Virus record (IMG/VR): IMGVR_UViG_2877251553_000003
DNA: 33,823 nucleotides
DNA from: a virus
Taxonomy: Duplodnaviria; Heunggongvirae; Uroviricota; Caudoviricetes
Strand: one strand, 5' to 3'
Shown here: positions 4,928 through 15,910 of the stretch, one piece after another
Layout of the letters: the number at the start of each line of letters is the position of its first letter
Position numbering within the stretch: position 1 is the stretch's first letter
Program-made: the position numbers and the translations under genes
Notes under the pieces: model-generated
Databases searched by the model: none
The model's input: only the letters and a program-made list of their open reading frames with translations
What the model was told of the DNA's origin: nothing

Positions 4928-6278
4928 TTGCGCCGCGAGGCACTGAGTGATCAGGTCTGGGAGCGTTATTTTTTTTATGAATCACGTGATCCTGTCCAGC
5001 ACGAAATGGAGCAGGATAAGCTCATTAGCCGGGCAAAGCTGGCGCATGAGCAGCAGCGTTTTAATCCGGATATGGTCATTCTGGCGGACGTCAACGCCCA
5101 GCCTTCCCATATCAGCAAGCCGCTGATGCAACGTATTGAATACTTCAGCAGCCTGGGCAGGCCAAAGGCTTATTCCCGCTATTTACGTGAGACGATTAAG
5201 CCATGTCTGGAACGACTGGAGCATGTACGCGACAGCCAGCTATCTGCATCTTTTCGTTTTATGGCAAGCCATGTAGGGCTGGACGGCCTGCTGATTCTGC
5301 CTGAAATGAGTCAGGATCAGGTGAAACGCCTGTCTACCCTTGTCGCTGCGCATATGAGCATGTGCCTTGATGCAGCTTGTGGTGATTTGTATGCCACCGA
5401 TGACGTTAAGCCAGAAGAAATCCGCAAGACATGGGAAAAGGTGGCAGCGGAAACCCTGCGTCTGGATGTCATCCCGCCTGCGTTTGAGCAACTCCGTCGG
5501 AAAAGAAACCGCCGTAAACCCGTGCCCTATGAACTCATTCCGGGTTCGCTGGCGCGTATGTTGTGCGCCGACTGGTGGTACCGGAAATTATGGAAAATGC
5601 GTTGCGAATGGCGGGAAGAGCAGTTGCGTGCTGTCTGCCTGGTCAGCAAAAAAGCATCTCCCTATGTCAGCTATGAAGCCGTGATGCATAAACGTGAGCA
5701 GCGCCGCAAGTCATTGGAGTTTTTCCGTTCTCATGAACTGGTGAACGAAGAGGGCGACACGCTGGATATGGAAGACGTGGTAAACGCCAGCAGCAGCAAC
5801 CCGGCGCACCGCCGCAATGAGATGATGGCCTGTGTTAAAGGTCTGGAGCTTATCGCGGAAATGCGCGGTGACTGCGCCGTTTTCTACACCATTACCTGTC
5901 CGTCACGTTTCCATTCCACGCTCAATAACGGCAGACCAAACCCAACCTGGACAAATGCGACGGTAAGACAAAGCAGCGATTATCTGGTCGGCATGTTTGC
6001 TGCATTTCGTAAGGCGATGCACAAAGCCGGGTTGCGCTGGTATGGCGTGCGGGTGGCTGAGCCGCATCATGACGGTACAGTTCACTGGCACCTGTTGTGT
6101 TTTATGCGCAAAAAAGACCGCCGCGCCATTACTGCATTGTTGCGTAAGTTTGCCATCCGTGAAGACCGCGAGGAACTGGGTAATAACACTGGTCCACGCT
6201 TTAAATATGAGCTGATAAACCCGCGCAAAGGAACGCCGACAAGCTACATCGCGAAATACATCAGTAAGAACATTGACG
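4928..6278 (+). pseudogene. A: P2 A / 186 A-type rolling-circle replication initiator, 5' portion, interrupted by the IS66-family element
   Basis: HUH-type motif (VHWHLLCF) and the YIAKYISK tyrosine pair just before the insertion point; start uncertain (TTG at 4928; an ATG ORF at 4819-4950 in another frame could be the true N-terminus). Confidence 0.8.
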
Positions 6279-6349
6279 GTAAGCGTACAGCCTGAACCGT
6301 CTGGTCAGAATCTGACGAATTAGACAAAGTGGTGTCCACCAAATAAGTA

Positions 6350-6750
6350 GTGGGAACCAAAGTGTCAGATATGCAGAAAAATGTGAATCCCGGCAGGCGA
6401 AAAGGCTGCCCTAATTATCCTCCCGAATTTAAACAGCAGCTCGTTGCTGCCTCCTGTGAACCCGGGATATCCATCTCAAAACTTGCTCTTGAAAATGGCA
6501 TTAACGCCAATCTGTTGTTCAAATGGCGACAACAATGGCGCGAGGGAAAGCTGCTATTACCTTCTTCAGAGAGCCCCAGCTACTTCCTGTGACTCTCGAT
6601 GCAGCTGCCGAACAGCCAGAATCGCTCGCAGAGGATCCGGAAACCCTCAGTATCAGCTGTGAGGTAACGTTCCGGCACGGGACGCTCCGCTTCAATGGCA
6701 ATGTCAGCGAAAAGCTCCTGACTCTGCTGATACAGGAACTGAAGCGATGA
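6350..6750 (+). CDS. tnpA: IS66-family TnpA (orf1); frame break in a C-run near 6574-6577
   Basis: Two overlapping track ORFs (6350-6592, 6523-6750) read as one protein if one C is added; start uncertain (GTG 6350 or ATG 6371). Confidence 0.7.
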
Positions 6751-7094
6751 TCCCGTTACCTTCCGGGACCAAAATTTGGCTGGTTGCCGGTATCACCGAT
6801 ATGAGAAATGGCTTCAACGGCCTGGCGGCAAAGGTGCAGACGACGCTGAAAGACGCTCCGATGTCAGGTCACGTTTTTATCTTCCGTGGGCGTAATGGCA
6901 GTCAGGTAAAGCTCCTCTGGTCTACCGGCGATGGACTGTGTCTGCTGACCAAACGGCTGGAGCGCGGCCGCTTCGCCTGGCCGTCAGCCCGGGATGGCAA
7001 AGTGTTCCTCACACCGGCACAGCTGGCGATGCTCCTTGAAGGTATCGACTGGCGGCAGCCTAAAAGACTGCTTACGTCCCTGACTATGTTGTAA
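6747..7094 (+). CDS. tnpB: IS66-family TnpB (orf2)
   Basis: 115-aa ORF MIPLPSGTKIWLVAGITDMRNGFNGLA... overlapping the tnpA stop (ATGA). Confidence 0.8.
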   Translation: MIPLPSGTKIWLVAGITDMRNGFNGLAAKVQTTLKDAPMSGHVFIFRGRNGSQVKLLWSTGDGLCLLTKRLERGRFAWPSARDGKVFLTPAQLAMLLEGIDWRQPKRLLTSLTML

Positions 7095-7142
7095 GCCTCT
7101 TTATCCTGGTCGACGCTGAATGAGCCTGGTAATATACCCGGT

Positions 7143-8680
7143 ATGAGCAGCTCACTTCCTGACGATATCAATGCACTGAAACGTCTCCTTGCCGAACAGG
7201 AGGCGCTGAACCGTGCCCTGCTGGAAAAGCTGAACGAGCGTGAACGCGAAATAGACCATCTGCAGGCACAGCTGGATAAGCTGCGCCGGATGAACTTCGG
7301 CAGCCGCTCCGAAAAAGTCTCCCGTCGTATCGCACAGATGGAAGCTGACCTGAAGGCACTTCAGAAAGAAAGTGATACCCTTACCGGTCGGGTTGACGAC
7401 CCGGCCGTGCAGCGCCCGCTGCGTCAAACCCGCACCCGCAAACCGTTCCCCGAATCACTCCCCCGCGATGAAAAACGGCTGCTGCCGGCAGCGTCATGCT
7501 GCCCGGAATGTGGAGGCTCACTGAGCTATCCGGGTGAGGATGCCGCCGAACAGCTGGAGTTGATGCGCAGCGTCTTCCGGGTTATCCGGACTGTACGTGA
7601 AAAGCATGCCTGTACTCAGTGCGATGCCATCGTGCAGGCCCCGCGCCTTCACGGCCCATCGAGCGGGGTATCGCAGGACCGGGGCTGCTGGCCCGCGTGC
7701 TGATCTCAAAGTATGCAGAGCACACCCCGCTGTACCGCCAGTCTGAAATGTACGGCCGCCAGGGCGTGGAGCTGAGTCGTTCACTGCTGTCGGGCTGGGT
7801 GGATGCATGCTGCCGGCTACTGTCACCGCTGGAAGAAGCGCTTCAGGACTATGTGCTGACTGACGGTAAGCTCCATGCTGATGACACGCCTGTCCCGGTG
7901 CTGTTGCCAGGCAATAAGAAAACGAAGACCGGGCGGTTATGGACCTACGTTCGTGACGACCGTAACGCCGGGTCAACGCTGGCGCCGGCGGTGTGGTTCG
8001 CTTACAGCCCGGACAGAAAAGGCATCCATCCGCAGACCCATCTTGCGGGGTTCAGTGGTGTACTGCAGGCGGATGCATACGCCGGGTTCAACGAGCTGTA
8101 CCGGGATGGCCGGATAACGGAAGCCGCCTGTTGGGCTCACGCCCGCCGTAAAATCCACGATGTGCACGTTCGCACCCCGTCAGCCCTGACGGAGGAAGCG
8201 CTGAAACGGATCGGCGAACTGTACGCCATCGAGGCAGAGATAAGGGGAATGACGGCGGAGCAGCGCCTTGCCGAACGTCAGTTGAAAACGAAACCGCTGC
8301 TGAAATCCCTGGAAAGCTGGCTGCGTGAAAAGATGAAAACCCTGTCGCGACACTCAGAACTGGCGAAAGCGTTCGCATACGCCCTGAACCAGTGGCCGGC
8401 GCTGACGTACTATGCAGATGATGGCTGGGCTGAGGCGGACAATAATATCGCTGAAAATGCGTTGCGGATGGTCAGTCTGGGCCGCAAAAACTACCTGTTC
8501 TTCGGTTCGGATCATGGAGGAGAGCGGGGAGCGCTGCTGTACAGCCTGATCGGGACGTGCAAACTGAACGGAGTGGAGCCAGAAAGCTACCTCCGCTATG
8601 TACTTGACGTCATAGCCGACTGGCCGATAAACCGGGTCGGCGAACTGCTCCCCTGGCGCGTAGCACTGCCGACTGAATAA
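7143..8680 (+). CDS. tnpC: IS66-family transposase TnpC (orf3); frame break near 7638-7647
   Basis: Track ORFs 7143-7703 and 7619-8680 join into one ~510-aa protein (leucine-zipper N-terminus, CxxC...CxxC, DDE region) with a single-base correction. Confidence 0.75.
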
Positions 8681-8725
8681 CACATCCCCGTCAATACGGT
8701 TCTTGCTGCACGCTTACCATTGACG

Positions 8726-9615
8726 GGCGTGGTCTGGCTGGCGAGATCAGCAAGGAAACGGGTAAATCCCTGCGTGATAACGCTGAATACGTTAATCCCT
8801 GGGCGTCTCTGCATCGTGTTCAGCAATTCCGCTTCTTTGGTATTCCAGGGCGTCAGGCTTACCGTGAACTGCGGTTGTTGGCTGGTCAGGCGGCAAGGCA
8901 GCAGGGTGACAAAAAAGCAGGTGCGCCGGTACTGGATAACCCGCGCCTTGATGCCATCCTGGCTGCTGCTGATGCTGGCTGTTTTGCCACCTACATTATG
9001 AGGCAGGGCGGCGTGCTGGTTCCTCGCAAATATCACTTGATCAGAACCGCTTATGAAATCAATGAAGAGCCGACCGCCTATGGCGATCACGGTATTCGTA
9101 TTTATGGCATCTGGTCACCCATTGCAGAAGGCAAGATCTGCACTCATGCAGTGAAGTGGAAAATGGTTCGTAAAGCCGTTGACGTTCAGGAGGCGGCAGC
9201 CGACCAGGGCGCTTGCGCCCCTTGGACTCGTGGCAATAACTGTCCCCTTGCTGAAAATTTGAACCAACAGGAGAAAGATAAATCAGCTGATGGGAACCCC
9301 AGAACGGACATTACCAGCATGGATGACAAGGAGTTGCACGATTACCTGCACAGTATGAGCAAAAAAGAGCGCCGGGAACTGGCAGCAAGGTTACGCCTGG
9401 TGAAACCGAAACGGCGTAAAGACTACAAACAGCGAATTACAGACCATCAGCGACTGCAGCTCGTGTATGAGCTGAAGTCCAGAGGATTTGATGGCAGCGA
9501 GAAAGAGGTCGATTTACTCCTTCGCGGAGGCAGTATTCCGTCAGGAGCAGGCCTGCGTATCTTCTATCGGAACCAGCGTTTGCAGGAAGATGATCAGTGG
9601 CGGAACCTGTATTAA
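8726..9615 (+). pseudogene. A: Replication initiator A, 3' portion (resumes in frame after the IS66 element and duplication)
   Basis: Removing 6279-8725 restores ...KNIDG|[21 protein letters not shown]... in one frame; stop at 9613-9615. Confidence 0.8.
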
Positions 9616-9967: not shown

Positions 9968-10201
9968 ATGCGCATTGAAATAATGATCGATAAAGAGCAG
10001 AAGATTAGCCAGTCTACCCTGGACGCTCTTGAATCCGAGCTTTACCGCAATCTGCGCCCTCTGTATCCCAAAACGGTAATTCGTATCCGCAAAGGTAGCT
10101 CTAACGGTGTGGAACTTACCGGATTGCAACTGGACGAAGAAAGAAAACAAGTGATGAAAATTATGCAGAAGGTGTGGGAAGACGACAGCTGGCTGCATTA
10201 A
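9968..10201 (+). CDS. DinI-family protein (77 aa)
   Basis: MRIEIMIDKEQKISQSTLDALESELYRNLRPLYP...VWEDDSWLH resembles DinI (MRIEV...WESADDWFV) as recalled. Confidence 0.65.
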   Translation: MRIEIMIDKEQKISQSTLDALESELYRNLRPLYPKTVIRIRKGSSNGVELTGLQLDEERKQVMKIMQKVWEDDSWLH

Positions 10202-10336
10202 GAAACGTTGCTGGCGTCTGAACTAGCTTCTGGCGTCAGCAAGGTTGAACAACGAGCCCTTGCGAGGCGTTAGCTCTGTAGTGCATGTCTATGCCGCATG
10301 AGATCGCATGATCGTTTGAGGATCGTTTTTGCTAAG

Positions 10337-10360
10337 GCCCGCCAGAACTGGCGGGCTTTT
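10337..10360 (+). terminator. Rho-independent terminator after the dinI-like gene
   Basis: GC-rich inverted repeat GCCCGCC(AG)-AACT-(CT)GGCGGGC followed by TTTT. Confidence 0.6.
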
Positions 10361-10493
10361 GCGTAGATCATGCAGGTGCATGAAAACCACTACATAAAGC
10401 GGGCAGGCGTGGCGGGGATACGATTGCGCGCTAGGTATAAGTGTGTAAAATAATTCCAAAATAAATCATCACTAATGAAGTGAGAGGGTAATA

Positions 10494-12142
10494 ATGTTAG
10501 TCAAGAAAAATAAAAATTATAGTTTATATTTTTTAATTACAAATAATCAACAGATATCTGATTCTGGTAATTATATAAAAATAGTCCCATCAAGAAGCGA
10601 TTGGAATGATTTTGGATATTTGAGTAGAGTCGAAATATCTATTTTTAATAAAAAAGAGTGTAAGGATATAATTTCACTGAATGGTTATATTGGTTTTTTG
10701 AATTCAGAGGAGGAACGAAATGGAAAAGCAGAACTGATAAGGCGAGTGAAAAAAAAGGAAGAATCTAATTTAAAGGATGAGGGGTTTAATGATTATTTTG
10801 TCATGCTTCAGGATATGAATAATTATCGAAGACTAGTAAGATTTTTTGGGGTGAATGAATCCAAATATATATTAAATTTCATTAATGATGTTGTTTCTAA
10901 GAAAAGTGACGCTAGTGCAGAGAATTTGAGGAAAAAAGCAATCTCTTCTGATATCTTTAATAAATCTTTCATTAGAGAGTCTGAGTCGTATTTTACTTTC
11001 AAAAATGCAGGAACAGTTCTTTCCGGTATTCAATATGAGGAGTTGGGTAATTTATCACAGCACATCAAGATTAGCTATTCGAATAAAGTTAATGAAGAAG
11101 ATGTATCTTATGTTTTTAATTTTGATCACGAGCATGATTTACCAAAAAGAATTTCCATAATTATAGGCGAGAATGGTGTAGGAAAAAGCCAAACGCTTAG
11201 AGAAATCGCATTGGCTGCGATTAAAGGAAAGGATAATTTGGTGGCTGTAGTTGATTCTAACGGTGTGAGCATTGAAGAACGAATTCAAATTAGTAGGCTC
11301 ATTGCTTTTTCTCCAACAAATGAAAGTAAGTGTTCATTTCCAACCGATAAAAGAATAAAATCATTGATATGGTACAAAAGATTGACTTTAAATCGTGAAT
11401 CAAAATCCAAATTAAACTTGAATGATTTAATAGTGCAACTAGCGAGGAGTAACGACGCTATCGGCTATAATCAAAGGTGGAATATATTTGTTGATGCACT
11501 GAGTGTTCTAAATAGTAACAACGATTTAGTAATCAAATGTGGCGGTGAAAATTCACCATTTGTTAAATTAAATGAGCTTAATTCTCGAGGCGAAGAATCT
11601 AGACTATCATTATATTCTGAAATTATTCTCTCTGGCGAGCCTTTGAGGCTTATTGAAAATAAATGTTACCCTTTGAGTAGTGGGAAATATCGTTTATTAA
11701 GTTTTGTGTACAAGTTTGTTTGTATATTGAGAATGGGACTCTTCTATTAATAGATGAGCCAGAAACACATCTCCATCCTTCATTTATTAATAAATTTATG
11801 GCATTGCTTGATAATTTATTAGAAAAGACAGGCTCTTCAGCTATCATAGCAACGCATTCGGTTTATCTTGTTCGGGAGGTTTTTAAGGAGCAAGTGACAA
11901 TACTCAGAAGACGAGATGATGGGGTAATTGTTAGCGAAAAACCGAGATTGAGTACTTTTGGGGCGAATATAGGAAATATCTCATATTTTGTTTTCGGTGA
12001 GAGTGAACCAACTCAAATTTTAAATAAAGTAAAAAACAATATAATTGCAAAGAATATGTCTTGGGATGATGTTGAATCTAAATATAGCGAGGACTTATCA
12101 CTTAATGTATTAACTGCGTTGAGAAATGAAATGGGCAATTGA
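10494..12142 (+). CDS. ABC-type (AAA_15/AAA_21-like) ATPase of a candidate defence module, with a ~200-aa N-terminal extension; one frame break near 11715-11722
   Basis: Walker A IIGENGVGKSQ (about aa 213), LSSG signature, Walker B LLLIDEPE, H-loop ATHS; track ORFs 10494-11750 and 11720-12142 join if one T is restored in gtttgtttg; strong RBS GAGAGGG; very AT-rich. Confidence 0.8.
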
Positions 12143-12143
12143 A

Positions 12144-13007
12144 ATGAATAAATTAAAAAGACCTGTTTTTAAAGATTATTCTGCATTTAAAAAACTATCT
12201 GCAAATAAGAGATTAAAACATCATTCTGTTCTGAATGGACAGGATACATTTATACTTAATGCATATAGATCGTACATAAAGAATAAAGGGTATCTTAATG
12301 TCAATTCTTGTGGCGTATTGAGTAACAATATTGCTGAAGCTTTGAGATATTATTATAACAATCCCGCAAAGTGTTTATCTATAATTGATGATATAAGAGC
12401 AGCTAATTCTAACTCTCTATGTCCAATGTGTGGTTCAATGCATAGCGGGACTTTGGATCATGTTTTACCCAAGGAAAACTATCCAGAATTTTCTTTATTC
12501 ACTAAGAATTTGGTTCCTGCTTGCAAATGTAATACTTTCAAAAGTACTACTATAGCTAATTCTGCAGGCCATCGGATGCTGCATCCATATTTTGATAATA
12601 TATTAAAACAAAGATTAATATGTGCTAATTTTTCTAAATTAGGGCGAACACCTACAATTGATGTAAAAATCATAATTGACCCAATGTCACCAGAATATAA
12701 CAATGTTAAGTATCATCTTGATAATGTTGTTATCAAGAATAATATTAAGGGGTATTTGTCTGAACAATGGGAGTCGTTTTACTTATATCCTGAGCTTGTT
12801 ATTAGAGGACTGAATAAGAGTCTTTCTACTTATAGCGATGTATATGAGTTGTTGACTCGCGAGTTGTTGCTGTTGGATGAAAAACATAAAGGTAAAAATA
12901 ATTGGAATTCGGTTTTTGTAGCTGGGTTAATTCGACCTGATGTGATTAGGTGGATACTCTGTGAATTACATTTAGGTAACAGAAGTCCAGACGGTCGTCT
13001 CATATGA
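12144..13007 (+). CDS. HNH-family endonuclease, partner of the upstream ATPase
   Basis: CPMCGS...LDHVLPKENYP...NLVPACKCN fits the HNH pattern (CxxC, DH, N, CxC); starts right after the ATPase stop (alternative overlapping ATG at 12126). Confidence 0.75.
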   Translation: MNKLKRPVFKDYSAFKKLSANKRLKHHSVLNGQDTFILNAYRSYIKNKGYLNVNSCGVLSNNIAEALRYYYNNPAKCLSIIDDIRAANSNSLCPMCGSMHSGTLDHVLPKENYPEFSLFTKNLVPACKCNTFKSTTIANSAGHRMLHPYFDNILKQRLICANFSKLGRTPTIDVKIIIDPMSPEYNNVKYHLDNVVIKNNIKGYLSEQWESFYLYPELVIRGLNKSLSTYSDVYELLTRELLLLDEKHKGKNNWNSVFVAGLIRPDVIRWILCELHLGNRSPDGRLI

Positions 13008-13114: not shown

Positions 13115-14148
13115 TTAAGTAGCTAGTTTATAACTATCAAATTTAACAATGTTCTCACTTACCAATTTATTTATTTCCATCATTCTTTTTTGTAACGGTA
13201 TTAACTCGTTACGTACAAACACCAGGCTCGCCTTCTCCACATCCCCAAACCCCCGACATTATTAGGCATAATCCCCATCATTTGCGGTGGCACACGATGC
13301 GCCGCCATCATGTCATCCCGGCTCACGTTCTTGATGTTCAGAAACTCATCCTTCGCCGCGACTTCTGACAACGGGATGATCTGAAGCCCGTCCTTTTTGC
13401 CGTTAGGCGAGTACATAAACAGATTGCGGAAGTTACCTGGTCCTTTGGCGCTTTTCATCGCATTGCGGAGGTTGTTCACATCCTCCTGGTTTTGCGCGGC
13501 ATCGGTCATGTACATGATGAAGCCTGCATGACTGCCGTTAATGTAATACTATCGGCGGAACAGCGTGGCGGACTCGTTGAGCAGGGCTGACGGAATGGCA
13601 GAAAGGTAACCTGGCAGGCCGTAGATCTCTTGGTTGATGTCCGGTTCCATCAGATGAAAGATGCTTCCTTTCGTGAACTGATACGGCTGCGTGGTCATGC
13701 CGTATTGCACAAACCAGTAGGTATCCAGGTCTAATCCGCGTCGGGTGTATTTTGCCAGAGCAGGCTCAAGAGCGATGACCTATCCGAACCGGTTTGTGCG
13801 TTTCTCCAGGTAAGCGTTACCAAATACCAGATAATCCTGCACAAAACGTGAAAAAGCCTGCTGGCTGAGCAGCGGGTGAGGGATGTAGGTACTGATCAGA
13901 ATGTTGCATTTCACCGCAATTGGTGAACTGTGATGCACGGCGGCGCGGAAGGTGCGCGCCAGTCCGTCAAAACTCACTGGCGGCTCATACCAGCGATCTG
14001 TCTGTACGCATTCCACATAGTCCAGTAGTTCACGGCGGTCCAGAACCGGAACGGGATCGCCGAAGCTGAATGCTTCGGCTGAAGTCTGGTTTTTATGCTG
14101 GGTCTGTTTCGTCGCCGCAGCGCGGTTCTTCTTACTCTTTCCCATCAA
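13115..14148 (-). pseudogene. Q: P2 gpQ-type portal protein with two in-frame TAG codons and one C-terminal frame break
   Basis: MMGKSKKNRAAATKQ... N-terminus; TAG at 13780-13782 and 13549-13551 (as the reverse complement of cta) in the same frame as the flanking segments; a frame change near 13251-13260 extends the ORF to about 13115. Confidence 0.8.
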
Positions 14149-15910
14149 AAAATCTCCACAATATTGCTGGTATTGGCGGACTCGCCCTGCAGCGGTTCGT
14201 TAAACAGTGCGTGCATTGTTGCCCAGGCCAGATCGGCATGGCTGGCTTCTTCGCTGCGGCTGGCTTCATAGGTCGGGCGGTTGCCGCTGGCGGTGGTGGC
14301 GCGACGGATTGCCATGAATGACTGCGCAATGTCGGTGTGCCCGGCGTCAAACTCAAGACGGCGGTGGCTGATAATGTCGTAGGCCTTGAGTACCAGGGCG
14401 TTTTTAACGTTGGGGTTGTAGACAAACTCCCGGACGGCAGGAAAAAACGCTTTCACGTTCTCGTAAACCCGTGACCAACGCCGGTTGAGTCGATGCCGAT
14501 ATAGGTCACGTTGTACTGTTCAGTCAGTTTTTTGATGGCGTAAGCCTGGGCGCGAAAGTCCATTCCGCGCCACTGGTGACGCTCAAGAATGCGGAACTTA
14601 CCGCCTGGCACGGCTGGCGGTGCCACCACCACGCATCCGGCGCTGTCGCCGTTCTGCGTACCTTTTGCCGGGTCATAACCGATCCACACTTCGCGCCAGC
14701 CAAACGGGCGCAGGGCCAGTGCATGAAAGTCGGTCCAGACTTCCCAGCTGTCCACCATGCACGCCTGCAATTCGCTGAGCGGGAACACGGACGCGAGATC
14801 GTCCACGAACTCGCACATCAGCAGGTTCTGGTATTCGTCAGGGCTGTACTCCATGCGCAACTGGTCAAGGTCGAACAGGTTACAGGCGCCGCGCACCGCA
14901 TCTTCCACGGTGACTATCTGGCGGTATTGCCCGTCTGCGCACAGCAGGCCGGGGGCCAGATTGCTGTGGGACAGGTCGATGTCCACCTTGTCAGCTTTGT
15001 TGCGCCCACGGTTGAACAGCGCACCGGACCAGAACGGATAAGCACTGTGGGTCAGACTGGATGGTGTGGAAAAATAGGTCTGCCGCCATTTCTTGTGAAT
15101 AGCCATACCAGAAGCCACTTTGCGTAGCTCCTGAAATTTCGGTATCCAGAAATATTCATCCAGATACAGGTTACCGTGATAACTCTGGGCAGTGCGGGCA
15201 TTGGTGCCGAGGAAATACAGTGTGGCCCCGTTGGGAAGCACCATCGGATCGCCTTTCAGCTCCACCTCCACTTCTTTGGCAAAGTCGATGATGTACTGTT
15301 TGAAGACGTGGGCCTGTGCCTTACTGGCAGAAAGGAAAATCTGGTTACGTCCGGTAAGCAGGGCGTCAATCAGGGCTTCACGGGCAAAATAGAAGGTCGC
15401 GCCGATCTGGCGTGACTTCAGCAGGTTGCGGATGCGGTTGGTTTTTCCGGCTTCCCACCAGTGGCGCTGGTAGTTGAACATGGAGGAATGGAAATTTTTT
15501 TCCAGCTTCTCAATCTGGTCATCGGTGAAAACATTCTTTTCAGGCTGACGGCGTGGGCCTTTGTTGCGGTTGGCGACGTTAGGGTTTAAGTCGGCTTCGT
15601 TGCCGCCATTGTTAAACTTGCCGATCCGCGCGTGGCGCTCAGACTGGCGCGCCAGCAGGTCAATATCTTTGAAATCTTTCCCTTCTTTGTGCTCCTTCAT
15701 GATGAGCTGGCAGTAGCGTGCGGCGGTGGTGAGCTGCATCTGATCCAGAGGCCCATAGTCACCCCACTTGTCGCGTTTTTTCCAGCTGTAAACGGTTGCA
15801 ACTTTCTCGCCCAGCATTTCAGCAATGCGGGCTACGCGGTATCCCTGAAAGTACAGCAGCATGGCCTGCCGACGGGGATCGAGATCTGCGGGTGTCAGTG
15901 TGGTGTTCAT
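14145..15910 (-). CDS. P: P2 gpP-type terminase large subunit; single frame break near 14468-14470
   Basis: Track ORFs 14453-15910 and 14145-14456 join as ...IGIDSTGVGHG|VYENVKAFFPAVREF... if one G is restored. Confidence 0.85.

What the first reader, a model, noticed from the sequence alone, without database searches (positions are those of the whole stretch)
10494..11130. The ATPase carries a ~200-aa N-terminal domain ahead of the P-loop with no recognisable motif
In typical AAA_15/AAA_21 defence ATPases the Walker A lies within the first ~40 residues; here it is at about residue 213, preceded by a Lys/Asn-rich region I cannot assign to a family. This could be a sensor or effector domain and is the part most likely to be novel.
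Basis: inference. Interest (0 to 1): 0.6.

Follow-up and report, generated by a model that had tools for sequence, protein, structure and literature searches.

The report
Uncharacterised N-terminal domain, Septu-like ATPase
The roughly 180-residue region ahead of the ATP-binding loop is a real, well-folded, widely conserved domain with no known relative, and it marks a candidate anti-phage ATPase plus HNH-nuclease pair carried by a P2-like prophage; in this window the ATPase gene is broken by a frameshift.

Summary
Window 10494-12142 is one ABC-type ATPase gene. Intact E. coli relatives encode 549 aa. Here a 1-nt deletion in a G-run (11682-11684) splits it, inside a decayed P2-like prophage.

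Walker A (GENGVGKS) lies at residues 225-232, not 213. Residues 1-176 form an independent alpha/beta domain (AlphaFold pLDDT 91). Its motifs are conserved (WNDFG, GF, FFTML, YR, ND, SFxR, KNA). They are present in 74 of 79 species-level loci across many phyla and in 266 clusters at 50% identity. The domain almost always occupies this position.

A 287-aa HNH protein (PDC-M01B) follows directly in 77 of 79 loci. The closest solved structures are retron and Septu PtuA. Those have the P-loop near the N-terminus and a coiled-coil insertion that is absent here.

Best reading: a Septu-like ATPase-nuclease defence module. Its constant N-domain is probably a regulatory, assembly or sensing module; this role is inferred, not shown.

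Novelty: new variant of a known kind. Interest is moderate.

The parts
10483..10488 (+). Shine-Dalgarno-like AGAGGG, 5 nt upstream of the ATG at 10494
   Evidence: Read directly from the sequence.
10494..11021 (+). N-terminal alpha/beta domain, residues 1-176. Strands are at about 2-5, 10-13, 27-32, 45-51, 59-68 and 101-105; helices at 78-91, 108-129, 140-150, 153-159 and 163-176. Conserved positions: F13, P32, W37-N38-D39-F40-G41, G67-F68, F102, Y111-R112, D132, F155, F159, R161, N171-A172 and L176.
   Evidence: AlphaFold model pLDDT 91, pTM 0.87. Conservation. A profile of this domain finds 266 clusters at 50% identity.
11022..11060 (+). Linker, residues 177-189. It has low model confidence but carries conserved G178, E182 and S188.
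   Evidence: pLDDT 56-59 in both models. Conservation.
11061..11684 (+). N-terminal half of the ABC ATPase head, residues 190-397. It ends at the LSSG signature motif (11673-11684).
   Evidence: Secondary structure; motifs; weak Pfam P-loop hits at residues 213-262.
11166..11189 (+). Walker A, GENGVGKS, residues 225-232
   Evidence: invariant G225, N227, G228, G230, K231 and S232.
11682..11684 (+). Frameshift site. The run is GGG here and GGGG in the intact relatives, a 1-nt deletion.
   Evidence: Alignment to L001 (E. coli UPEC-245U, NZ_CP049845).
11684..12142 (+). C-terminal half of the ATPase, in the shifted frame (residues 398-549 of the intact protein). It holds Walker B LLLIDE (11741-11758), the H-loop His455 (11855-11857), a C-terminal helical tail, and the stop at 12140-12142.
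   Evidence: ORF 11720..12142. AAA_21 at 1e-11 and AAA_15 at 2.8e-9. PDC-M01A at 1e-34. Alignment.
12144..13007 (+). HNH nuclease partner, 287 aa (PDC-M01B). Motifs: CPMCG, GTLDH(106)xLP, NLVPAC-x-CN and HPY(Y/F)D.
   Evidence: PDC-M01B at 1.2e-33. PHROG 18937 and PHROG 10378 'HNH endonuclease'. Annotated as HNH endonuclease in relatives. Alignment A4. Directly downstream in 77 of 79 loci.
9968..10201 (+). DinI-like gene, the left boundary of the hotspot cargo
   Evidence: Pfam DinI at 1.3e-22; annotation in L001.
13115..14145 (-). P2-type portal gene (gpQ), the right boundary of the hotspot. It is a pseudogene here, with nonsense substitutions at 13782 and 13551 and a 1-nt deletion at 13249.
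   Evidence: Comparison with L001.

Best explanation
Shown:
- Window 10494-13007 is the two-gene cargo of the cos-proximal hotspot of a P2-like prophage, which lies between gpA/DinI and portal gpQ.
- Gene A is an ABC-type ATPase with four parts. Residues 1-176 are an independently folding alpha/beta domain with a W-N-D-F-G signature. Residues 177-189 are a flexible linker. A compact ABC head follows, with all catalytic motifs but no coiled-coil insertion. A short helical C-terminal tail closes the protein.
- Gene B is an HNH nuclease that starts 1 nt after the stop codon of A.
- The N-domain, the ATPase and B are inherited together across many bacterial phyla.
- PADLOC catalogues the pair as candidate system PDC-M01. 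Its closest characterised relatives are Septu and retron type I-A PtuA/PtuB.
- In this window gene A is inactivated by a frameshift.

Inferred:
- The pair works like Septu. The ATPase dimerises or oligomerises, binds the HNH partner through its C-terminal tail, and keeps the nuclease silent until infection. The nuclease then damages nucleic acid and aborts phage growth.
- The N-domain is the constant regulatory and assembly module of this lineage. It sits where retron PtuA carries the N-terminal extension that couples it to its controller. It occurs in a lineage that lacks the coiled-coil used by PtuA for self-assembly.
- I therefore propose that it mediates protomer or partner contacts and/or binds the infection cue, so gating the nuclease. 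It is probably neither a catalytic effector nor a generic DNA binder.
For: Gene structure and frameshift.

Hotspot position. Rousset et al. 2022 (PMC9122126) define the gpA-gpQ hotspot. Their supplementary table lists WP_112048222 and WP_000960488+WP_024199288 there as 'AAA_21/AAA_15 + hypothetical'.

Family assignment:
- PDC-M01A at 1e-19 and 1e-34, and PDC-M01B at 1.2e-33.
- PHROG 8066 at 1e-210 over residues 12-549.

The domain is real:
- pLDDT 91 and pTM 0.87.
- Invariant motifs.
- 266 clusters at 50% identity, nearly all with the domain N-terminal in proteins of 530-580 aa.
- An HMM hit in 74 of 79 species-level loci. The W[ND]D[FW]G motif persists even in relatives at 25% identity.

Partner linkage: HNH directly downstream in 77 of 79 loci, and the two misses lie at contig ends.

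Similarity to PtuA: Foldseek top hits are retron Ec83 PtuA at 1.9e-8, retron I-A PtuA, and Septu PtuA at 1e-6.

No coiled-coil:
- The Walker A to Walker B distance is about 193 residues here and about 303 in retron PtuA.
- There is no helix longer than 12 residues between residues 245 and 395.
- In Retron-Eco7 PtuA the coiled-coil spans residues 255-310 and mediates PtuA-PtuA contacts (PMC12673091).

Precedent for an N-terminal coupling element: the retron PtuA N-terminal extension contacts RT and ncRNA, and its deletion abolishes defence.

Flexible tether: linker pLDDT is 56-59.

Accessory character:
- Some PDC-M01A profiles (388 and 435 positions) start at the P-loop.
- Some lineages add DUF4062 or AbiJ_NTD3 upstream of the N-domain.

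Defence and mobile-element context: P2 hotspot, ICE, integrase island, and a GmrSD/GIY-YIG island.
Against: - No experiment shows that PDC-M01 defends against phage. It is an unpublished candidate class.
- The role of the N-domain rests on analogy and position only.
- The domain shows no sign of arms-race hypervariability. It also keeps invariant polar residues (D39, Y111, R112, D132, R161, E182). These could equally mark an active site or a small-ligand pocket.
- It is not consistently basic (median pI 5.6).
- The absence of structural neighbours was tested only against PDB representatives and viral models. The AlphaFold database library was unavailable.
- The absence of a coiled-coil rests on a predicted model and on length arithmetic.
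- The window's copy is frameshifted, so nothing can be concluded about function at this locus.
Confidence: 0.55

Rival explanations
1. The N-domain is the direct sensor. It binds a phage protein or a phage-made nucleic acid or nucleotide, and this binding releases or activates the HNH partner.
For: - The N-terminal position matches that of the retron PtuA extension, which contacts the controlling RT-ncRNA.
- The tether is flexible.
- The domain evolves faster than the catalytic core: 39% mean pairwise identity against 56-74%.
- The invariant polar residues could form a ligand pocket.
- Stand-alone Septu is reported to be sensitised by a phage tail fibre, so protein sensing occurs in this superfamily (PMC12819146).
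Against: - The domain is constant across phyla, and its divergence is no greater than that of other peripheral regions (39% in the middle region, 36% in the C-terminal tail).
- Lineages that add typical sensor or effector modules (AbiJ_NTD3, DUF4062) keep the N-domain behind them. This suggests that sensing may lie elsewhere.
- There is no charge signature for nucleic-acid binding.
Confidence: 0.3
2. The N-domain is a second effector, an enzyme such as a nuclease, a nucleotide-processing enzyme or another toxic activity. It acts alongside the HNH partner.
For: - A set of invariant or near-invariant polar residues could be catalytic: D39, Y111, R112, D132, R161 and E182.
- Defence ATPases often carry N-terminal effector domains; this is general knowledge of conflict systems.
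Against: - A dedicated nuclease partner is already strictly linked.
- Most conserved positions are aromatic or aliphatic core residues.
Confidence: 0.08
3. There is no extra domain. Either the start codon is mis-called (an internal ATG is the true start), or the region is a low-complexity, AT-rich leader of no significance.
For: The region is N/K/S-rich and lies in AT-rich DNA. Pfam finds nothing.
Against: - Homologues from Proteobacteria to Actinobacteria, Bacteroidota and candidate phyla align over the whole region and share its motifs.
- The region folds with pLDDT 91.
- A Shine-Dalgarno-like sequence lies 5 nt upstream of the ATG at 10494.
- NCBI annotates the 549-aa form in intact relatives.
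Confidence: 0.02
4. The frameshift in the ATPase is a sequencing artefact (a homopolymer undercall), and the gene is actually intact in the source organism.
For: All three 1-nt indels in 10.4 kb relative to L001 are deletions in G or C runs of 4-6 bases (11682, 13249, 14467). Each one breaks a gene.
Against: - The same prophage carries two nonsense substitutions in the portal gene (13782, 13551).
- An IS66-family insertion interrupts gpA. Homopolymer errors do not produce either change.
- The identical allele (Y124) occurs in Shigella records only as fragments (243, 128, 117 and 116 aa; three labelled partial). The 243-aa Shigella boydii copy diverges inside Walker A.
Confidence: 0.25

Closest known systems
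Septu (stand-alone PtuA ATPase + PtuB HNH nuclease; PDB 8ee4, 8ee7, 8eea, 8sux)
   Same: - A two-gene ATPase plus HNH operon.
- An ABC-type head with AAA_15/AAA_21 signatures.
- Foldseek similarity of about 1e-6.
- PADLOC PtuA profiles hit both halves of the ATPase.
- PDC-M01 and Septu calls overlap in practice (PMC11811056).
   Different: - In most PtuA profiles the P-loop maps to positions of about 3-70. Here about 190 residues precede the ABC head.
- No coiled-coil or dimerisation insertion is predicted here.
- The HNH partner is longer (287 aa).
- Sequence identity is only 11-12% in structural alignments.
Retron type I-A (Ec78/Eco7, Ec83) PtuA/PtuB
   Same: - These are the best structural matches: 9e90 at 1.9e-8, then 9n6b and 9nnb.
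- They also carry a lineage-specific N-terminal element ahead of the ATPase, and it is functionally essential.
- They have an HNH partner.
   Different: - The retron N-terminal domain is only 63 residues (three helices, two strands) and binds RT/ncRNA. The domain here is 176 residues and unrelated in sequence, and no retron RT or ncRNA gene appears among the genes called or annotated in the neighbourhoods inspected.
- NCBIfam PtuA (NF041760) scores 39.9 bits against a cut-off of 500.
- Catalytic His57 in retron PtuB corresponds to His106 here, so B carries about 50 extra N-terminal residues.
PADLOC candidate system PDC-M01 (A + B), and PHROG 8066 / PHROG 18937
   Same: Both proteins hit these profiles best, and the profiles cover the N-domain.
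   Different: - These are catalogue entries only. They carry no described function, no structure and no published validation.
- Two PDC-M01A profiles (388 and 435 positions) lack the N-domain.
OLD / Gabija GajA / PARIS AriA (ABC ATPases of defence systems)
   Same: The same ABC ATPase superfamily. AriA, Old and DUF2813 give weak hits on the C-terminal half. P2 old occupies the same hotspot.
   Different: - Their nuclease is Toprim or DUF4435, fused or adjacent, not HNH.
- None carries the W-N-D-F-G N-domain.

Membership tests
Septu (PtuA/PtuB) | Adjacent, co-oriented genes for an ABC/AAA_15-AAA_21 ATPase and an HNH nuclease | tested here: met
   The partner is directly downstream in 77 of 79 related loci.
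Septu (PtuA/PtuB) | Complete ABC catalytic motifs in the ATPase (Walker A, signature, Walker B plus catalytic Glu, H-loop) | tested here: met
   Invariant K231/S232, LSSGE 394-398, D421/E422 and H455 in the family. In the window itself the motifs are split between two frames by the frameshift.
Septu (PtuA/PtuB) | Score above the threshold of a curated PtuA model | tested here: not met
   NCBIfam NF041760 (a retron Ec78 PtuA equivalog) scores 39.9 bits against a cut-off of 500. PADLOC PtuA profiles score below the PDC-M01A profiles.
Septu (PtuA/PtuB) | Coiled-coil or dimerisation insertion in the ATPase that mediates PtuA-PtuA assembly | tested here: not met
   The Walker A to Walker B span is about 110 residues shorter than in retron PtuA. 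The model has no long helices between residues 245 and 395. This rests on a prediction, not on a solved structure.
Septu (PtuA/PtuB) | P-loop near the N-terminus, with no large N-terminal domain | tested here: not met
   Walker A lies at residues 225-232. Most PtuA profiles align it at positions of about 3-70.
Septu (PtuA/PtuB) | Anti-phage activity that depends on both genes, with nuclease activity regulated by ATP | not testable with these tools
   This needs cloning of an intact allele and phage challenge.
PADLOC PDC-M01 candidate system | Adjacent genes that match the PDC-M01A and PDC-M01B profiles | tested here: met
   A matches at 1e-19 (first ORF) and 1e-34 (second ORF). B matches at 1.2e-33.
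P2 cos-proximal defence hotspot cargo (Rousset et al. 2022) | Located between replication gene A (with DinI-like) and portal gene Q of a P2-like prophage | tested here: met
   gpA at 4928-6292, DinI at 9968-10201, and portal and terminase at 13115-15910. The same proteins are listed in the paper's hotspot table.
Retron type I-A | Reverse transcriptase and ncRNA encoded next to PtuAB | tested here: not met
   No RVT gene among the annotated neighbours of the intact E. coli relatives, which match the window at about 99.6% over 8.7-19.1 kb, or among the genes called in four other related neighbourhoods. The window's own ORFs were scanned against Pfam only in part.
OLD / Gabija / PARIS | ABC ATPase coupled to a Toprim or DUF4435 nuclease | tested here: not met
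   The partner is an HNH protein.

The most novel reading that the evidence does not exclude
The W-N-D-F-G N-domain is a previously undescribed protein fold. It acts as the input module of a distinct, widespread branch of ATPase-HNH immunity. It replaces the coiled-coil and hexamer-based control of Septu, and the RT-msDNA control of retron PtuAB, with a third way of gating the same nuclease. That way would be direct binding of an infection cue, or of the extended N-terminus of the HNH partner.
Probability: 0.3. Interest if true: 0.6.

Novelty: new variant of a known kind. Interest (0 to 1): 0.42.

Why it matters
ATPase plus HNH pairs (Septu and retron I-A effectors) are a recurring chassis of bacterial immunity, and how each is controlled is currently being worked out lineage by lineage.

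This branch was found in at least 433 species-level genomes and is carried on prophages, ICEs, islands and plasmids. It has a constant 176-residue domain with no family assignment and no structural neighbour, placed where the retron lineage carries its coupling element.

Characterising it would define a Pfam-less domain. It would also turn an unpublished PADLOC candidate into a described system. And it would show a third solution for keeping an HNH nuclease silent until infection.

For this window the practical message is more modest. The cargo is a decayed copy in a dead prophage.

Tried and rejected
- Pfam, NCBIfam and PHROG scans of residues 1-212, and of 63 diverse N-domains, gave no consistent family other than the uninformative PHROG 8066.
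- Profile searches of PDB sequences with two N-domain alignments found nothing below E = 0.26.
- Foldseek against BFVD gave a best E of 0.07.
- The afdb50 library was not available.
- A PD-(D/E)xK reading of D39...E46 was rejected because only W37-G41 stay conserved in the wide alignment.
- Generic nucleic-acid binding was rejected on charge: median pI 5.6 and median net charge -3.
- Programmed frameshifting at the G-run was rejected. Intact relatives have GGGG, there is no canonical slippery heptamer, and similar deletions hit the portal and terminase genes.
- The N-domain-only word-index homology search returned only Shigella/E. coli fragments (three labelled partial). The full-length query and the exhaustive profile search were needed instead.
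- Promoter and terminator scans gave counts no higher than shuffled sequence and were not used.
- The literature holds no paper that names the protein accessions in its text. They appear only in a supplementary table of Rousset et al. 2022.
- tblastn of the N-domain against 50,697 phage records found nothing.
Full report
WHAT IS IN THE WINDOW

The ORF that starts at 10494 runs to 11750 (418 aa). A second ORF in another frame, 11720..12142 (140 aa), follows it. The first ORF ends just after an ABC signature motif (PLSSG). The second begins just before a Walker B motif (LLLIDEPETHLHP).

Three complete E. coli genomes carry the same 2.9 kb at 99.1-99.7% identity. There it is a single 549-aa 'AAA family ATPase' followed by a 287-aa 'HNH endonuclease'. 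Alignment to one of them (L001, strain UPEC-245U) shows that the window lacks one G of a GGGG run at 11682-11684. The finding's 'ATPase' is therefore one gene that is broken in this window.

The surrounding prophage is decayed.
- The portal gene has two nonsense substitutions (13782, 13551) and a 1-nt deletion (13249).
- The terminase gene has a 1-nt deletion (14467).
- Replication gene A is interrupted by an IS66-family element at 6280-8717.
- All three single-base deletions lie in G or C runs. A sequencing artefact cannot be excluded for the ATPase alone. The nonsense substitutions and the IS insertion argue for real decay.
- The identical allele (Tyr124) occurs in Shigella records only as fragments, three of them labelled partial.

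CHECKING THE OBSERVATION

Walker A (GENGVGKS) is at residues 225-232 (nt 11166-11189), not about 213. Pfam and NCBIfam find nothing in residues 1-212.

In most PADLOC PtuA profiles the P-loop region of this protein aligns to profile positions of about 3-70. The long N-terminus is therefore atypical for PtuA-like ATPases.

The start codon is sound. AGAGGG lies 5 nt upstream of it. Homologues align from the first 5-30 residues onward.

The N/K/S-rich composition goes with the low G+C of the cargo, 32-38% against 50-59% in the flanks. It is not a sign of disorder.

THE N-TERMINAL REGION IS A REAL DOMAIN

A full-length model has pLDDT 78. It places strands and helices over residues 1-176, a low-confidence linker at 177-189, and the first strand of the ABC head at residue 190.

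A model of residues 1-190 alone, built on 63 diverse sequences, reaches pLDDT 91 and pTM 0.87. It has six strands (2-5, 10-13, 27-32, 45-51, 59-68, 101-105) and helices at 78-91, 108-129, 140-150, 153-159 and 163-176.

Conservation is strong.
- Among 30 homologues of 41-81% identity, many positions are invariant: F13, P32, N38-D39-F40, G67, M104-L105, Y111-R112, D132, S158-F159, R161, N171, G178, E182 and S188.
- Among 63 sequences of 20-45% identity (one close homologue at 75%), Y111 is invariant. W37, D39, F40, R112, L127, D132, F155, F159, R161, A172, L176, G178 and E182 are at least 90% conserved.

DISTRIBUTION

The full-length protein has at least 733 relatives in the 90%-clustered collection. 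The 120 best-scoring ones listed are nearly all 528-570 aa and align over 94-100% of the query.

A profile of the N-domain alone was searched against 1.84 billion cluster representatives. It finds 266 clusters (57 at E of 1e-30 or better). Among the 150 best listed, the full-length hits are almost all proteins of 530-580 aa with the domain at the N-terminus. The shorter hits look like fragments.

A few hits carry a further domain upstream of the N-domain: DUF4062 (P0184, P0198) or AbiJ_NTD3 (P0186).

A scan of one genome per species found 433 relatives. The 79 loci kept span Alpha-, Beta- and Gammaproteobacteria, Myxococcota, Bdellovibrionota, Verrucomicrobia, Elusimicrobia, Bacteroidota, Acidobacteriota, Actinomycetota and a Gracilibacteria MAG.
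- The N-domain HMM hits 74 of the 79 loci.
- Two of the other five are cut at a contig end.
- The other three still have 190-317 residues ahead of the P-loop. Two of them (Erythrobacter, Rahnella) show a W-D-D-[FW]-G motif.

No record among 50,697 phage genomes carries the domain. Eight Rhizobium or Agrobacterium plasmids do.

NO KNOWN RELATIVE OF THE DOMAIN

- Pfam on all 63 N-domains gave only scattered single hits.
- PDB sequence profiles found nothing below E = 0.26.
- Foldseek against viral models gave a best E of 0.07.
- The AlphaFold-database library was unavailable, so 'no neighbour' is provisional.
- The only libraries that cover the region are catalogue-type: PADLOC PDC-M01A (E = 2e-6 on residues 1-212 alone, 1e-19 on the first ORF) and PHROG 8066.

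THE PARTNER AND THE SYSTEM

The next gene (12144-13007) starts 1 nt after the ATPase stop codon. It carries CPMCG...GTLDH106xLP...NLVPAC-x-CN...HPY(Y/F)D, which is an HNH nuclease with a zinc-ribbon-like cysteine set. It hits PDC-M01B at 1.2e-33.

A homologue lies directly downstream of the ATPase in 77 of 79 loci, and the two exceptions end at contig edges. The same holds in the individually inspected neighbourhoods:
- an ICE in Pseudoxanthomonas;
- an integrase island in Salmonella;
- a GmrSD/GIY-YIG/T5orf172 island in Microvirga;
- a Prim-Pol element in a metagenome.

In the window the pair sits between the DinI-like gene and portal gene Q. This is the cos-proximal hotspot of P2-like phages, where P2 itself carries old and tin (PMC9122126). 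The exact proteins of the intact relatives appear in that paper's hotspot table as 'AAA_21/AAA_15 + hypothetical'. They are not among the systems tested there.

PDC-M01 is an unpublished PADLOC candidate class, and its calls overlap with Septu calls (PMC11811056).

RELATION TO PtuA

The full-length model's best PDB matches are retron Ec83 PtuA (1.9e-8), retron I-A/Ec78 PtuA, and then Septu PtuA (about 1e-6). Identity is 10-16% among these PtuA matches.

Three differences stand out.
1. Retron-Eco7 PtuA has only a 63-residue N-terminal domain. Stand-alone Septu PtuA has none of that extension.
2. The Walker A to Walker B distance is about 193 residues here against about 303 in retron PtuA. The model has no helix longer than 12 residues in between. 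The coiled-coil that mediates PtuA-PtuA contacts (residues 255-310 in Eco7 PtuA) therefore appears to be absent.
3. The HNH partner is longer (287 against 216 aa). Its catalytic His is at 106 rather than 57.

The curated NCBIfam PtuA model is far below its threshold, 39.9 against 500 bits.

HOW IT MOST LIKELY WORKS

Shown: the architecture, the conservation, the linkage to the HNH gene, the intact ATPase motifs in the family, and the defence and mobile-element context.

Inferred by analogy with Septu and retron PtuAB:
- The ATPase binds the nuclease through its C-terminal helices and restrains it until infection.
- The nuclease then attacks nucleic acid.

The role of the N-domain is the open part. 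Several observations point to a regulatory or assembly role:
- It is constant across the family and always linked to this HNH subfamily.
- It is tethered by a flexible but conserved linker.
- It sits where retron PtuA has its coupling element.
- It occurs in a lineage without the coiled-coil.
- It is retained when other sensor-like modules are added upstream.

Other observations limit what can be said:
- It evolves faster than the catalytic core (39% against 56-74% pairwise identity), but no faster than other peripheral parts.
- It is not consistently basic.

I therefore favour a regulatory and assembly role that gates the nuclease, possibly including cue binding. A purely enzymatic role and a generic DNA-binding role seem less likely. 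Two PDC-M01A profiles lack the domain, which fits an accessory, regulatory character.

VERDICT

The interpretation 'novel domain, maybe sensor or effector' is partly supported. The domain is uncharacterised and has no detectable relatives. It is, however, typical of a large catalogued candidate family, and its function remains untested.

Novelty: a new variant of the Septu-type ATPase-HNH kind.

Interest: moderate (0.42). The family deserves experimental work, but this particular copy is a pseudogene in a dead prophage.

Noticed in passing
window 13115-15910 (- strand): The P2-type portal gene has two nonsense substitutions (13782, 13551) and a 1-nt deletion (13249). The terminase ATPase gene has a 1-nt deletion (14467). 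The prophage therefore cannot make particles. All three 1-nt deletions in 10.4 kb, including the one in the ATPase, lie in G or C homopolymers.
   Followed up: yes
window 6280-8717: An IS66-family element (TnpB_IS66 at 6747-7094; transposase split into 7143-7703 and 7619-8680) is inserted in replication gene A. A 9-bp overlap at the junctions (6271-6279 and 8718-8726) is consistent with a target-site duplication. The transposase itself looks frameshifted.
   Followed up: partly
window 10000-13000: The hotspot cargo has 32-38% G+C against 50-59% in the phage backbone, so it was acquired from an AT-rich source.
   Followed up: no
P0184, P0198, L051 (DUF4062); P0186, L008, L081 (AbiJ_NTD3); P0200, L083, L084 (unassigned 150-190-aa N-termini): Some distant family members carry an additional domain fused upstream of the conserved N-domain. 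These extra domains are typical of conflict systems. The N-termini of P0200 and L083 were not identified.
   Followed up: partly
[not shown]
   Followed up: no
P0001 (Shigella boydii, 243 aa): The same allele as the window (Tyr124) diverges inside Walker A ('GENGVGNYRREW...'). The gene has therefore apparently been inactivated independently in different Shigella lineages.
   Followed up: partly
window 18930: An 18-bp in-frame deletion relative to L001, within the head-completion gene region.
   Followed up: no
window 10337-10364: The G+C-rich inverted repeat GCCCGCCAG-AA-CTGGCGGGC, followed by TTTTG, lies downstream of the DinI-like gene. It looks like a terminator that separates DinI from the cargo operon, but the automatic scan did not call it.
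   Followed up: no
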